The notes under the pieces: generated by a model
What the model was told of the DNA's origin: nothing
Databases searched by the model: none
The model's input: only the letters and a program-made list of their open reading frames with translations
Source: the human T2T-CHM13v2.0 reference genome, Homo sapiens
Length of the DNA stretch: 64,000 nucleotides
Assembly: GCF_009914755.1 (NCBI RefSeq)
Contig: NC_060928.1
Strand: one strand, 5' to 3'
Shown: one piece after another, positions 1-5,621 of the stretch
Layout: every line of letters starts with the position of its first letter
Numbering within the stretch: position 1 is the stretch's first letter
Program-made: the position numbers and the translations under genes

Positions 1-229
1 TGGTGGGCAGGAGTGGGAGTCACAAGGTGCTCAGTAGGGGAGCTTTTGAGCCAGGATGAGCAAGGAGAAGGAATTTCACAAGATAATGTCATCAGTTAAG
101 GCAGGAACAGGCCATTTTCACTTCTTTTGTTGTGGAATGTCATCAGTTAAGGCAGGAACCAGCCATTTGGATGTGTACCTGCAGGTCACAGGGGATGTGA
201 TGGCTTAGCTTGGGCTCAGAGGCCTGACA
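1..229 (-). mobile_element. HERV-H 3' LTR (LTR7), U3 part only
   Basis: Minus strand begins TGTCAGGCCTCTGAGCCCAAGCTAAGCC at 229; aligns without gaps to 4948-5176 (14 mismatches in 229 by manual count). Confidence 0.95.
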
Positions 230-247
230 TTCCTATCTTCTTATATT
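230..247 (-). promoter_or_regulatory. Polypurine tract of HERV-H
   Basis: Minus strand AATATAAGAAGATAGGAA immediately precedes the 3' LTR TG. Confidence 0.85.
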
Positions 248-949
248 AATAAGAAAAATAAAATGAAATAGTGGTAAAGTGTTGGGGTGGCGAAAATTTT
301 TGGGGGTGGTATGGAGAGATAATGGGCGATGTTTCTCAGGGCTGCTTCAAGTGGGATTAGGGGCGGCGTGGGAACCTAGAGTGGGAGAGATTAAGCTGAA
401 GGAAGATTTTGTGATAAGGGGTGATATCATGGGGTTGTTAGAAGAAACCTTTGTCTTATAGAATTATTGGTGATGGCCTGGATACAATTTTGTATGAATT
501 GAAAAAACAATGGAATAAGATAAGGAGAAAAACAGGTATTAAAGGACTAAGAATTGGGAGGACCTACGACATCTAACTAGAGAGTGCCTAAGGAGGTTCA
601 GCATAGCCCTGCCAGCAAAGATTATTTATTTACTTTAAGAGGGAGTTAAGAGTGGCAGTTTGGGGATAGCACCAGCAGATATCAGCTGTGGTGGCTTGGA
701 GAAACAGTGTAAACAGGCAGTGTAAACAAGAGCAGGGCATTTATGAGTAGTTGACAACGGTGAATAGGAGTATGACTAGACAGAAGATAGTAGAGATAAC
801 AGTTTTATTTTTTTTTGGTGGGGGCGCAGTCCCAGTTGGTCTAGTGTCTGGAATGAGACTGGGGCCTAATAAAAAGGAGCATCTATACAGGAGCTCAAAT
901 GGCCTGTACCTTGTAGCATTCCGAGGACAGGCCTGAATTCTGAGAAGGG

Positions 950-2791
950 CAAGTGGTAAAAGTATTGTCCAGTCCTTTTTAAGTTGGTAGCTGAGCTTGG
1001 TGAGGTGTGTTTTTAAAAGACCATTAGTTCACTGAATACTAAGAGCCTGAGAAACTGCTTGGGTGATTTAACTAATAAAGGCCGGTCCATTACAGGACTG
1101 TATAGAGGTGGGAAGGCCAAACCGAGGAATTGTGTCTGACAGAAGGGAAGAAATGACCGTGGTGGCCTTCTTAGACCCTGTGGGAAAGGCCTCTACCTAT
1201 CCAGTCAAAGTGTCTACCCAGACCAAGAGATATTTTAGTTTCCTGACTCAGGGCGTGTTGAGTAAAGCCAATTTGCCAGTCCTGGGCAGGCAAATCCCCA
1301 AGCTTGATGTGTAGGGAAGGGAGGGGGCCTAAATAATCTCTGAGGAGTAGGAGAATAGCAGATGGAAGATTGAGGAGTTATTTCTTTGAGAATAGATTTC
1401 CACGATGGAAAGGAAATCAGAGGTTCTAAGAGGCAGGCTAGTGGCTTGTACTATAGCATAGCCTGCCTTTGCTGGTGTGTGGCGATTAGGCCTGGTGGAA
1501 CTGCCATCAATAAACCAAGTGTGATCAGGGTGAGGAACAGGAAAGAAGGAAATATGGGGAAATGGGGTGAATGTCAGGTGGATCAGAGAGATATAGTCAT
1601 GGGGGTCAGCTGTGGTATCAGGAATAATGTGGGAGGCTGGATTGAAGTCTGGGCCAGGAAAAATGGTAATTGTGGGAGACTCAACAAAGAGTGAGTACAG
1701 CTGAAGGAGCCGGGGAGCAGAGAGTATATATGTCAGGTGTGAGGAAGAAAATAGATTTTGGAAGTTATGAGAACTGTAGAGAGTGAGTTGAGCATAGTTT
1801 GTGATTTTAAGGGCCTCTAAAAGTATTAGGGTGGTGGTGGCCGCTGCACGCAGACTTGCGGGCTAGGCAAAACAGTAAGGTCAAGTTGTTTGGATAAAAA
1901 GGCTACAGGGTGCAGTCCAGGTCCCTGTGTAAGAATTCTGACTGCACAGCCCTGCACTTCGGCTGTGGGTAATGAAAAGGGTTGGGATGAGTCAGGGAGA
2001 GCTGGGTAGGGGCAGTCTCTAAAGCTGTCTTCAAGGAATGGAAAGAGGAGTGGGGAAAGGATTTAGGATCTATGGGGTCAGCTTTTGTGAGTTTATATAA
2101 TGGTTTTGTTAGGATGGCAAAACCAGATATCTAAAGTTGAAAGTATCCAACTATGCCTAGGAAGGAAAGGAGTTGTTGTTTTGTAGAAGGGATTGAGGTT
2201 TGGGAGATTAGTCGGACATGATCAGCAGGGAGAGCACGTGTGTTTTTATGAGAATTATGCCGAGATAGGTAACAGATGAGGATGAAATTTGGGCTTGACT
2301 GAAGTAATGGGGGCTGTCTGTGAAGCCTTGCGGCAGTACAGCCCAGGTAATTTGCTGAGCCTGATGGGTGTCAGGGTCAGTCTAAGTGAAAGCGAAGAGA
2401 GGCTGGGATGAAGGGTGCAAAGGAATAGTAAAGAAAGTATGTTTGAGATCCAGAACAGAATAATGGATTGTGGAGGGAGGTATTGAGGATAGGAGAGTAT
2501 ATGGGTTGGGCACCATGGGGTGGATAGGCAAAACAATTTGGTTGATAAGGCGCAGATCCTGAACTAACCTGTGAGGCTTGTCTGGTTCTAGTACAGGTAA
2601 AATGGGGGAATTGTAAGGAGAGTTTATAGGCTTTAAAAGGCCATATTGTAGCAGGCGAGTGATAACAGGTTTTATCCTTTTAAAGCGTGCTGTGGGATGG
2701 GATACTGGCATTGAGTGGGGTAAGGGTGATTAGGTTTTAATGAGATGGTAAGGGGTGCATGACGGGTCGCCAAGGAGGGAGTAGAGGTATC
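950..2791 (-). pseudogene. pol: HERV-H pol remnant (RT and downstream parts; stops, frameshifts, deletions)
   Basis: ORF 2382..2711 gives the RT N-terminus ([10 protein letters not shown]...[10 protein letters not shown]...[17 protein letters not shown]); the catalytic-type LDLKDAFF motif is altered; boundaries approximate. Confidence 0.85.
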
Positions 2792-3200
2792 CTATACTTG
2801 TGGGTTAAGGTAGGGGGATACAAGAGGAGGACACAAAGGAGGCTTTGGATTGGGAAGAAGGGCGGCAATGAGATGTGGCTGTAGTCCAGGAATAGTCATT
2901 GAAACAGATAATTTAGTTAAAGTGTCTCGGCCTAAGAAGGGAACTGGGCAGGTGGGGATAACTAAAAAGGAGTGCTTAAAAGAGTATTGTCTAAGTTGGC
3001 ACCAGAGTTGGGGAGTTTTAACAGGTTTAGAAGCCTGGCTGTCAATATCCATTATAGTTGTGGAGGCAAGAGAAACAGGCACTTGAAAAGAAGGTAATGT
3101 GGAGTGGGTAGCCTCCATATTGATTAAGAAGGGGACGGACTTACCCTCTACTGTGAGAGTTACCTAAAGCTCGGTGTCCCTGATGGTCTACGGGGCTTCC
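2792..3200 (-). pseudogene. pro: HERV-H protease remnant
   Basis: ORF 2792..3118 contains HSFLVIPTCPVPFLGRDTLTKL (retroviral protease GRD motif); the active-site region reads MEATHS, so it is degenerate. Confidence 0.8.
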
Positions 3201-3259
3201 GAGGTGATAGGGCAGCGTCAGTCTTCAGCTGCTAAGTGGAGAAGATCAGGGAAGGAGTC

Positions 3260-4451
3260 AGTCAGAGAGCCTCGGGCCAGAGTTCCAGGGGCTCTGGGAG
3301 TGGCTGCCAGGTGAGTTGAACAGTCCGATTTTCAGTGGGGTCCCATACAGATGGGACGCGGCTTAGGAGGAATCCCGGGCTGCGGGCATTCCTTGGCCTG
3401 GTGGCCAGATTTCTGGCATGTGTAGCAAGCTCCTGGGGGAGGCGGTTCTGGAGGAACACCTGGCCACTGCGGCTTAGGCGTTTGGAAGTTCTTGTGTGCT
3501 GGAGATGTGGCTGTGGTTTGTCTCACAGTGGAGGCAAGGAATTGCAACTCAGAAATATGTTGCTACTTGGCTGTCTCTACTCTATTATTGTACATCTTGA
3601 AGGCGAGGTTAATTAAGTCCTGTTGCGGGGTTTGAGGGCCGGAATTTAATTTTTGGAGTTTTATTTAATGTCGGGAGCAGATTGGGTAATAAAATGTATA
3701 TTGAGAATAAGACAGCCTTTTGACATTTTAGGGTCTAGGGCTGTAAAGCATCTCACGGTTGCTGCCAAATGAGCCATGAACTGGACTGGGTTTTTATATT
3801 TGATGAAAAAGAGCCTAAACGCTATCTGATTTGGATAAAGAAAAAGGAGCATTAACCTTGACTATGCCTTTAGCTCCAGCCACCTTTTTAAGAGGAAATT
3901 GCTGGGCAGGTGGGGGAGGGCTAGTCACCGAAGGAAACTGTAAACCGGACCGGGTGTGAGGAGGGGAGGTGATAAAAGGATTACAGGGTGGAGGAGGAGA
4001 GGCTGAGGAAGAATTGGGACCTAGCTCAGCCTGGCGAGGAGGAGAGAGGTCAGATGGGTCTGTAGAAAAGGAAGATTAGAAAGACTCAGCGACGCTTGGG
4101 GTTGGGACTGAGGGGACAGGCAGGAGGGAAAGAGGGAAGATTTGGGATGAGTTGCACTGGGAACAGAGACCAGGGAGGGATCAATGTGTAAATGAATGCC
4201 TGGACATCAGGCACCTCAGACCACTTGCCCATTTTATGACAAGAATTATTTAGATAGTGTAGGATGGAAAAATTGAAAGTGCAATTTTCTGGCTATTTGG
4301 AACTACTGTCGAGTTTGTATTGGGGTCAAGTGGCATTGCAGAAGAAAATAAGGCATTTAGGTTTTAGGTCAGGTGTGAGTTGAAGAGGTTTTAGGTTTTT
4401 AAGAACACAGGCTAAGGGAGAAGGGGGAATGGAGGGTAGAAGCTTGCCCAT
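3260..4451 (-). pseudogene. gag: HERV-H gag remnant
   Basis: Start MGKLLPSIPPSPLACVLKNLKPLQLTPDLKPK at ATG 4451, with an early stop; NC zinc knuckle CYTCQKSGHQAKEC in ORF 3332..3547. Confidence 0.88.
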
Positions 4452-4544
4452 AGTGAAGGATGCAAGCCCAGAGGAAAGAGAGAGTAGAGACACGGAGGGA
4501 AGGGGTTCGGGGGTTCTTACCCTCCAGAAAAGTGTGGAAGGCAT

Positions 4545-4712
4545 CGGGGTGTGGAAATAAGGAGTTGGGGAGCAGAGATAAGAGGTCGGGGCGTGGAAAT
4601 AAGGGATCGGTGATCAGAGATAAGACGTCAGGGCGCGGAAATAAGGGATGGGGCACAGAGATAAGGGGTCGGGGCATAGAAATAAGGGATCGGGGCACAG
4701 AGATAAGGGGTC
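4545..4712. repeat. HERV-H pre-gag tandem repeat (alternating ~21-22 bp G-rich units)
   Basis: GGGGCACAGAGATAAGRGGTC and GGGGCRYGGAAATAAGGGAT units repeated about 8 times. Confidence 0.85.
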
Positions 4713-4724
4713 GTGGAAGGGGTC

Positions 4725-4763
4725 ATGGTCAGCACTCTGGACTCTGAATCCAGCGATCTGAGT
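4725..4763 (+). tRNA. Internal fragment of tRNA-Gln(CTG) (about nt 15-53), not a functional gene
   Basis: ATGGTCAGCACTCTGGACTCTGAATCCAGCGATCTGAGT versus recalled human tRNA-Gln-CTG ATGGTTAGCACTCTGGACTCTGAATCCAGCGATCCGAGT (37/39); anticodon stem CTGGA/TCCAG with loop CTCTGAA, anticodon CTG at 4744-4746. Confidence 0.9.
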
Positions 4764-4773
4764 CACGGCACCA
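4756..4773 (-). promoter_or_regulatory. Primer-binding site, tRNA-His
   Basis: Minus strand TGGTGCCGTGACTCAGAT, 17/18 complementary to the tRNA-His 3' end ATCCGAGTCACGGCACCA; 2 nt from the LTR end. Confidence 0.95.
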
Positions 4774-4775
4774 AG

Positions 4776-5176
4776 TTTCATGCGCGTCTGTGTGAAGAGA
4801 CCACCAAACAGGCTTTGTGTGAGCAATAAACTTTTAATCACATGGGTGCAGGCAGGCTGAGTCCGAAAAGAGAGTCAGGGAAGGGAGATAGGGGTGGGGC
4901 CGTTTTATAGGATTTGGGTAGGTAAAGGAAAAAGGGGGGTTGTTCTCTGGCAGGCAGGAGTGGGGGTCACAATGTGCTCAGTAGGTGAGCTTTTAAGCCA
5001 GGATGAGTGAGAAGAAGGAATTTCACAAGATAATGTCATCAGTTAAGGCAGGAACAGGCCATTTTCACTTCTTTTGTGGTGGAATGTCATCAGCTAAGGC
5101 AGGAACCGGCCATCTGGATGTGTACGTGCAGGTCACAGGGGATGTGATGGCTTAGCTTGGGCTCAGAGGCCTGACA
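4776..5176 (-). mobile_element. HERV-H 5' LTR (LTR7), 401 bp
   Basis: TGTCAGGCC...GACGCGCATGAAA; duplicated TTCCTGCCTTARCTGATGACATT blocks, TATAAAA box, GC/GT box CCCCACCCC, ATTAAA polyA signal. Confidence 0.95.
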
Positions 5177-5621
5177 ATCACCCTCTGAAAGTCCATTGAA
5201 AATCAACTGGAGAAAAGCAGATTAATAGGAGAAAAAGTATACAACATTTTACAGGAGAGCATTCTCTTGAGGAGCAACCAATAATTATTAAAGGGAATAA
5301 GTGGACAGAATTCACTTGTAAGTTATTCTCTTTATTGAATAAGTCCAAGTGGCAAGCATTATTTTGTGAAAAAGTCTCTCCAGATGCATTTGCATTCCAG
5401 TCTTCTTTTCTGACATAGATCATACGATTTCACGAAGAAGAGAAACAATTGTGTTTCTTTTGGAGAGATTTGTTGGTAAGATGTAAAAGTCGAAAAGAAA
5501 ACCCCTCTCTGCACTTGGGAGTTGGGGGACACCAGACAAAATTAGAGGTACCTGGATTCTAAGAAAGCTTCTAAGGCCTTCAGCATGTTGAAGTGCCAGT
5601 CTTTCTTTCTGAGTCCCAACA
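5177..5621 (-). mobile_element. ERV1 MER4-group LTR (MER31/MER67-like), host of the HERV-H insertion
   Basis: Minus strand starts TGTTGGGACTCAGAAA; shares GCAGATTAAYAGGAGAAAA with the LTR at 9555. Confidence 0.65.

What the first reader, a model, noticed from the sequence alone, without database searches (positions are those of the whole stretch)
4713..4775. Chimeric tRNA-Gln/tRNA-His sequence at the HERV-H PBS: possible capture of a second tRNA during reverse transcription
Seen: the + strand reads ATGGTCAGCACTCTGGACTCTGAATCCAGCGATCTGAGTCACGGCACCA. Its last 18 nt are the tRNA-His PBS. Bases 4725-4763 form a tRNA D-arm-to-T-arm segment with a 5-bp anticodon stem (CTGGA/TCCAG) and a CTG anticodon. 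Known (recalled): this matches human tRNA-Gln-CTG nt ~15-53 at 37/39. The two tRNAs overlap in ATC(C/T)GAGT, which extends to CGATCCGAGT against the usual HERV-H post-PBS sequence. The C>T is at a CpG, and both tRNA pieces have the same polarity. Inference: plus-strand strong-stop DNA ending ...ACTCGGAT annealed to a co-packaged tRNA-Gln through this microhomology, copied ~30 nt through the anticodon loop to the D-loop, then jumped to the pre-gag repeats. The short filler duplicating GACCCCTT fits that jump. This would be a fossil of an aberrant second-strand transfer using a non-primer tRNA as a bridging template.
Basis: partly seen in the sequence, partly recalled or inferred. Interest (0 to 1): 0.88.

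Follow-up and report, generated by a model that had tools for sequence, protein, structure and literature searches.

The report
Wrong tRNA fossilised in human retrovirus
One old retroviral insertion (HERV-H) on human chromosome 4 carries 39 bases of a glutamine tRNA fused to its normal histidine-tRNA primer site, has lost the sequence behind it and has one damaged end; this is likely a one-off copying accident from the day it inserted, possibly started by a broken piece of the wrong tRNA, a priming route so far described for copia-type transposons.

Summary
Window 4725-4763 matches nt 15-53 of a tRNA-Gln-CTG gene at 38/39, overlaps the tRNA-His primer site (4756-4773) and replaces about 0.4-0.6 kb of leader. 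The junction was found once in the genome, against 519 HERV-H LTR-primer-site junctions; a GRCh38 catalogue lists the provirus at the same length.

Two new facts. (1) Four other HERV-H copies are rearranged exactly at the primer site (one primer read-through, three hops onto the inverted leader), so this family's reverse transcription leaves such fossils. (2) This provirus also lacks the last 17 nt of its 3' LTR, its 5-bp target duplication and about 14 host bases. Only 1 of 56 comparable copies shows such end loss, and both resolvable rearranged controls have normal ends.

It is a variant of the aberrant second-strand transfer known from HIV-1, but with a non-primer tRNA. Single locus, no sign of function, ape orthologues untested.

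The parts
4776..5176 (-). HERV-H 5' LTR (401 nt), precise outer end; catalogued as LTR7d1
   Evidence: subfamily label from PMC8912925 supplement rows
4774..4775 (-). 2-nt spacer between LTR and primer site; differs by one base from all other fetched copies
   Evidence: 26 other locus records share one form; the variant occurs only in records of this locus
4756..4773 (-). 18-nt tRNA-His primer-binding site
   Evidence: same site in other HERV-H copies; His identity is recalled and agrees with the L146/L148 sequences
4725..4763 (+). tRNA-Gln-CTG nt 15-53 (D-loop to start of T-loop), tRNA sense on the + strand, 38/39 to the gene in L002
4754..4763 (+). 10-nt overlap shared by tRNA-Gln nt 44-53 and the distal primer site plus 2 leader bases; the crossover lies inside it
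4713..4724 (+). 12-nt filler between tRNA and repeat array; best match in the provirus is 4534-4545 (10/12)
4534..4712 (-). about 21-nt pre-gag repeat array on which synthesis resumed; about 0.4-0.6 kb of leader before it is absent
230..4533 (-). HERV-H internal region (common deleted type; reading frames not analysed)
1..229 (-). 3' LTR, continuing outside the window to genome position C4:136585848; last 17 nt of U5 absent, no 5-bp target duplication
5177..5251 (+). older host repeat that was the insertion target; about 14 nt of it are missing between the two flanks

Best explanation
The provirus holds tRNA-Gln nt 15-53 fused to its His primer site, lacks the leader and has a clipped 3' end without target duplication; the likely cause is one reverse-transcription cycle in which a 5' fragment of tRNA-Gln, rather than tRNA-His, primed the minus strand from inside the primer site. 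Inferred steps: (1) a tRNA-Gln-CTG fragment ending at about nt 53 paired by 10 bases with the distal primer site, which is possible because the 5' strand of the Gln T-stem has the same sequence as the 3' strand of the His T-stem; (2) the minus strand therefore began 10 bases early; (3) the plus strand copied back through the fragment, which lacks the usual m1A58 stop, as far as the D-loop; (4) its tRNA-derived 3' end could not pair at the primer site, landed briefly at the far end of the repeat array (filler) and resumed at the near end, dropping the leader; (5) the linear DNA carried extra bases at its U5 end, so integrase joined only the U3 end and host repair joined the other, trimming virus and host. 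Shown: the anatomy, uniqueness and rarity of the end defect. Inferred: steps 1-5.
For: Insert 38/39 to a tRNA-Gln-CTG gene and ending at the T-loop start. Polarity allows only plus-strand copying or use as primer (inference from retroviral reverse transcription; scheme in PMC7472051 passages). 3' LTR lacks 17 terminal nt, no target duplication, about 14 host nt missing. Base rate: of 60 other 3' LTR ends, 55 intact, 3 stop at the poly(A) site, 1 true truncation, 1 not an outer end, i.e. 1 of 56 (95% CI 0-10%) or at worst 4 of 59 (2-17%); 5-bp duplication in 17 of 17 copies with both ends located, of 20 fetched. Two rearranged copies expected to have been primed normally (C5 read-through, C16 inverted leader) have intact U5 ends and exact 5-bp duplications. 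A bad viral end joined by host enzymes gives truncated viral ends and host deletions (PMC5041404 passages). Priming by 3'-truncated tRNA is known for copia and Ty5 (PMC10886601 passages). A perfect 10-bp RNA duplex is predicted at -16.1 kcal/mol against an opening cost of 2.5-4.4.
Against: One locus; the end defect could be an independent 36-nt deletion after insertion (it has short virus/host homeology at the join, and 2-7% of copies show end loss). Only two rearranged controls were resolvable. Plus-strand hops at the primer-site end are seen three times in this family, whereas no other internally primed copy was found. No extra primer-site bases survive at the U5 end, so the predicted extension is not seen directly. 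The private spacer base at 4775 could itself have disturbed end processing if it predates insertion. Folding does not favour the fragment much over the whole tRNA (opening 2.2-4.4 vs 5.1-5.7 kcal/mol, unmodified secondary structure only). Alternative priming in HIV is rare even with a near-perfect whole tRNA (about 0.5%, PMC6450007 abstract).
Confidence: 0.45

Rival explanations
1. First reader's route. tRNA-His primed normally; plus-strand strong-stop DNA then paired by its last 8 bases with the T-stem of a co-packaged tRNA-Gln, copied it to the D-loop and jumped to the repeat array. The clipped U5 end is then a separate event.
For: Same junction and polarity. Three HERV-H copies join the primer-site end to the inverted leader through about 5 shared bases (C16, C3, C1); C16 and C3 have different second junctions, so at least partly independent events. 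C5 shows primer read-through plus jump. HIV-1 proviruses with 7-54 nt of primer tRNA at a deletion junction are described (PMC12657518 passages). Many non-primer RNAs are packaged (PMC5086612 passages). 8-bp duplex predicted -10.8 kcal/mol (RNA parameters) vs 5.1-5.2 opening cost.
Against: Predicts a normal U5 end and target duplication, as in C5 and C16; here both are lost, which happens in about 2-7% of copies. Needs two aberrant jumps.
Confidence: 0.38
2. Capture after integration. A break at the primer site was repaired by a cellular reverse transcriptase (L1 or Pol theta) primed on tRNA-Gln through the 10-base match, with end joining that deleted the leader and made the templated filler.
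For: tRNA-Gln retrocopies that stop near the same place exist (L017 ends at about nt 48, L145). Tailless retropseudogenes use 2-18 nt of target complementarity (PMC5322556). Templated fillers and deletions are typical of microhomology end joining (recalled; PMC7407515 seen only as a listing).
Against: Both retrocopies keep the tRNA 5' end and L017 has a flanking duplication in A-rich DNA; this insert is 5'-truncated, has no duplication and sits in GC-rich DNA. Only 3 of 23 genome-wide matches to the Gln core are partial copies (this one, L017, L145), so a hit on a primer site by this route is improbable, whereas primer-site rearrangements recur in HERV-H.
Confidence: 0.13
3. DNA-level patching from the tRNA gene on chromosome 6 (or assembly error).
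For: The best match is one particular gene (L002).
Against: No flanking gene sequence is captured; the insert stays inside the mature tRNA and ends at the shared T-stem; GRCh38 lists the same provirus length.
Confidence: 0.04

Closest known systems
Aberrant (delayed) second-strand transfer with tRNA insert in defective HIV-1 proviruses (PMC12657518; passages read)
   Same: tRNA-derived bases directly behind the primer site, same polarity, defining a deletion junction; insert length within their 7-54 nt range. The C5 HERV-H copy (L146) is the exact counterpart with 7 nt of tRNA-His.
   Different: There the insert continues the primer tRNA; here it is a different tRNA joined through a shared T-stem, fixed in the germ line, with a faulty U5 end.
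Priming by 3'-truncated tRNA in copia and Ty5 (cited in PMC10886601; passages read)
   Same: A 5' tRNA piece pairs by an internal stretch and would serve as minus-strand primer.
   Different: Those elements use it as their regular route, cut in the anticodon arm of tRNA-iMet and others; here it would be a one-off in a gamma-like retrovirus, cut at the T-loop. The passage says such primers are confined to some Copia lineages among plant elements.
One-ended (aberrant) retroviral integration (PMC5041404; passages read)
   Same: One precise end, the other truncated, no short duplication, host bases deleted.
   Different: Shown experimentally with mutant ends or inhibitors; here inferred from a fossil, and host duplications were the commoner outcome there.
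Tailless tRNA retropseudogenes (PMC5322556; parts 1-3 of 5 read)
   Same: 3'-truncated tRNA copy whose end matches the target sequence.
   Different: Those are nearly complete at the 5' end, have 8-35 nt duplications and A-rich targets; this one has none of these and comes with a deletion.

Membership tests
HERV-H provirus (LTR7d1) | Two related LTRs, His primer site, purine tract before the 3' LTR | tested here: met
   LTRs differ at 20 of 384 aligned bases; listed as 7d1 in PMC8912925 supplement
HERV-H provirus (LTR7d1) | Precise ends with 5-bp target duplication | tested here: not met
   U5 end clipped, no duplication; present in 17 of 17 other copies with both ends located
Aberrant second-strand transfer with tRNA insert | tRNA-derived bases abut the primer site in primer polarity and define a deletion junction | tested here: met
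Aberrant second-strand transfer with tRNA insert | Insert continues the primer tRNA itself | tested here: not met
   insert is tRNA-Gln; His read-through looks different (L146)
Aberrant second-strand transfer with tRNA insert | Rearrangement present from the moment of integration | not testable with these tools
   needs ape orthologues; none in the supplements searched
Truncated-tRNA priming (copia/Ty5 type) | Primer site pairs with an internal tRNA stretch | tested here: met
   10-nt match to tRNA-Gln nt 44-53, one CpG change
Truncated-tRNA priming (copia/Ty5 type) | The fragment is shown to prime DNA synthesis | not testable with these tools
   only duplex energies computed
Truncated-tRNA priming (copia/Ty5 type) | It is the element's regular, inherited priming mode | tested here: not met
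   one locus against 519 ordinary junctions
Tailless tRNA retropseudogene | Near-complete tRNA 5' end | tested here: not met
   starts at nt 15
Tailless tRNA retropseudogene | 8-35 nt target duplication at an A-rich site | tested here: not met
   none; leader deleted instead
Tailless tRNA retropseudogene | 3' end matches the target sequence | tested here: met
   10-nt overlap

The most novel reading that the evidence does not exclude
This is a germ-line fossil of a vertebrate retrovirus primed by a cleaved, non-cognate tRNA: the 5' remainder of tRNA-Gln left by a T-loop cut hijacked the His primer site through the mirrored T-stems, and the same accident crippled one viral end. tRNA 5' fragments could then mis-prime and sabotage HERV-H copying, and primer-site junctions across ERVs would record which tRNAs and fragments were inside ancestral particles.
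Probability: 0.4. Interest if true: 0.7.

Novelty: new variant of a known kind. Interest (0 to 1): 0.55.

Why it matters
It is a direct molecular record of what went wrong inside one retroviral particle in the ape germ line some 10-20 million years ago. Under either reverse-transcription route it shows a non-primer tRNA being copied into a provirus, which I did not find described. If the fragment-priming route is right, a priming mode known from copia-type elements can occur by accident in a vertebrate retrovirus, with a clear bench prediction. The side result, at least four more HERV-H copies broken exactly at the primer site, suggests a simple genome-wide scan of ERV primer sites for such fossils. 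There is no sign that the insert does anything today: the catalogue row shows no RNA or factor binding, only an H3K27ac mark.

Tried and rejected
ARAGORN and Rfam on the window: no call; the fragment is too short. Propagated sublineage: rejected, junction found once. Ordinary leader: rejected. Read-through of tRNA-His: rejected, the insert is Gln and real His read-through looks different. L1-processed copy: rejected, the 5' LTR is complete and the 3' LTR reaches nt 384 of 401, beyond the 361-363 end of the three poly(A)-type copies. Other tRNAs at HERV-H primer sites: 12 further loci with odd neighbouring bases came from three exact patterns; sequences read showed one His read-through, two inverted leaders, eight small changes with the leader kept and one chance match, and no second foreign tRNA; four more hits were not HERV-H. 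These patterns allow no mismatch and give lower bounds. Dating the insert by its divergence: uninformative (0 differences in 31 nt; about 0.8 expected). Folding to separate fragment from whole tRNA: inconclusive. Ape orthologue data: not found in supplements of PMC6629862 (no coordinates) or PMC4905674. The 3' ends of the C3 and C1 inverted-leader copies were not resolved (C3 not found in 6 kb; C1 not fetched). Literature searches for a prior description: (0 papers); none of the listings pointed to this locus or to a non-primer tRNA behind a primer site. The library lacks most subscription journals, including older virology papers on deletions with insertions near the primer site (recalled, not read), and bioRxiv supplements were closed.

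Full report
Observation. The window holds a HERV-H provirus on the minus strand: 5' LTR 4776-5176, primer site 4756-4773, internal part 230-4755, and a 3' LTR from 229 to genome position C4:136585848, just outside the window. A search of the whole genome with 4700-4790 gave one full-length match (itself); the next best hits were tRNA-Gln genes, then other HERV-H LTR-primer-site junctions (40 of 116 candidates scored; names from ARAGORN). Window 4725-4763 equals nt 15-53 of the tRNA-Gln-CTG gene in L002 at 38 of 39; the difference is the CpG base 4759. L002 alone among the 15 Gln loci aligned has C at 4730; eight other CTG genes give 37/39. The source is therefore probably this isodecoder, although one substitution in a commoner one would look the same. 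The match stops where Gln and His diverge; the two share 4756-4763, and other HERV-H copies share two more bases with Gln. The overlap exists because the 5' strand of the Gln T-stem and the 3' strand of the His T-stem read alike.

Uniqueness and reality. A 25-letter junction pattern with up to 2 mismatches found this locus and one ordinary copy, while 519 places match the HERV-H LTR-primer-site junction. In 15 of 15 other copies the distance from primer site to a fixed point behind the repeat array is 635-986 nt, against 274 here; the first repeat-like unit lies 443-628 nt behind the site, so about 0.4-0.6 kb is gone. The 12-nt filler matches the far end of the array, 4534-4545, at 10/12, its best match in the provirus. 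The supplement of PMC8912925 lists chr4:133263579-133268907 (GRCh38) as a minus-strand LTR7d1 element of the same length within 1 bp, split into two pieces around this spot, with no RNA or factor binding and an H3K27ac flag (rows seen). That paper places most 7d1/7d2 growth at 14-20 million years (passages); the two LTRs differ at 20 of 384 bases.

The family breaks at this point repeatedly. Patterns for odd bases next to HERV-H primer sites (exact or near-exact, so lower bounds) found C5:129189760, where the site is extended by 7 nt of tRNA-His and joined to a gag-region position matching window 3624, and three copies (C16:66369364, C3:181010960, C1:233075179) where the site's end joins the inverted leader through about 5 shared bases; C16 and C3 differ at their second junctions; C1 was seen only as a pattern match. 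The C5 copy is the counterpart of the HIV-1 proviruses with 7-54 nt of primer tRNA at a deletion junction (PMC12657518, passages); read-through past m1A58 makes the plus strand unable to pair normally (PMC8599865, passages). With this locus, five rearranged copies were found against about 500 ordinary junctions. This makes origin during reverse transcription far likelier than later capture. Polarity agrees: tRNA sense on the minus strand can arise only if the tRNA was the primer or was copied by the plus strand (inference).

The unexpected second defect. The 3' LTR lacks the last 17 nt present in the 5' LTR and there is no 5-bp target duplication. The target was an older repeat; in 10 of 14 paralogues the motif that now abuts the 3' LTR lies 14-16 nt before the sequence that abuts the 5' LTR (4 gave no motif), so about 14 host bases are also gone. 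Virus and host resemble each other over about 8 nt at the join, so the exact point is uncertain. For a base rate I read 60 3' LTR ends, taken from the first 100 listed of 1009 purine-tract junctions (contigs C1 and C2, exact matches, hence well-preserved copies): 55 intact; of the other five, three stop at the poly(A) site (likely processed copies), one is a true truncation and one is not an outer end. That is 1 of 56, or 4 of 59 counting all losses. Of 20 copies with both ends fetched, 17 had both located and all 17 show a 5-bp duplication, 16 exact. The two rearranged controls that could be resolved, C5 and C16, have intact ends and exact duplications.

Mechanism. The U5 end of retroviral DNA is set by where the minus strand starts. 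If a tRNA-Gln 5' fragment ending near nt 53 primed inside the primer site, the plus strand would run through it without the m1A58 stop, end in tRNA sequence, jump abnormally, and the finished DNA would carry about 10 extra bases at U5. Ends that integrase cannot use are joined by host enzymes, often truncated and with host deletions or duplications (PMC5041404, passages). This one cause covers insert, deletion and end defect. My estimate is 0.45 against 0.38; these odds are judgement, not computed. Energies allow both: perfect duplexes of 10 and 8 bp at -16.1 and -10.8 kcal/mol, opening costs 2.2-4.4 for the fragment and 5.1-5.7 for the whole unmodified tRNA. Against my reading: one locus, two controls, no surviving extra bases at U5, a private spacer base at 4775 that might have affected end processing, and low rates of alternative priming in HIV (PMC6450007, abstract).

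Later capture. Of 23 genome-wide matches to the Gln core, 18 were read: 15 whole genes or gene-length copies context plus L017, L145 and this insert as the only partial ones; the remainder of the list coincides with genes already named or fetched. L017 and L145 keep the tRNA 5' end, and L017 has a flanking duplication, as tailless retropseudogenes do (PMC5322556, parts 1-3 of 5 read). The HERV-H insert fails two of three defining features. Repair capture without duplication cannot be excluded without ape sequence (0.13).

Known and new. Works like: aberrant second-strand transfer with tRNA insert, and, on the favoured reading, truncated-tRNA priming as in copia and Ty5 (PMC10886601, first part and passages). 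It is a member of neither as defined: the insert is not the primer tRNA, and the priming mode is not the element's regular one. Searches (listings and abstract starts only) showed no description of this locus or of a non-primer tRNA behind a primer site; most subscription journals and bioRxiv supplements were out of reach. PMC7472051 and PMC5086612 were read as passages. Verdict: real, unique, a new variant of a known kind, no evidence of function; interest 0.55.

Noticed in passing
L146/L149/L151, G000:C5:129189760: HERV-H whose primer site is extended by 7 nt of tRNA-His and joined directly to the gag region; intact ends and exact 5-bp duplication. A germ-line counterpart of the HIV-1 delayed second-strand transfer.
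   Followed up: yes
L152 (C16:66369364), L153 (C3:181010960), C1:233075179: Three HERV-H copies join the primer-site end to an inverted copy of the first 125-140 nt of leader at the same point; C16 is a 1.7-kb mini-provirus with normal ends. A recurrent template-switch hot spot.
   Followed up: partly
L135, L137, L139: Three of 60 HERV-H 3' LTRs stop at the poly(A) site, one with an A-run; likely L1-processed HERV-H copies.
   Followed up: partly
L017 (C13:52892007), L145 (C19:34514378): Tailless tRNA-Gln-CTG retrocopies keeping the 5' end; L017 has a flanking duplication and ends at about nt 48.
   Followed up: partly
L148 (C20:59115543): Decayed tRNA-His retrocopy with CCA and an A-run.
   Followed up: no
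C1:217828783 (-) and C1:217834642 (+): Two HERV-H primer-site junctions facing each other 5.9 kb apart: possibly an inverted or rearranged pair.
   Followed up: no
window 4503-4797: The RefSeq enhancer interval covers the repeat array, the tRNA insert and the primer site; whether the rearrangement affects it is unknown.
   Followed up: no
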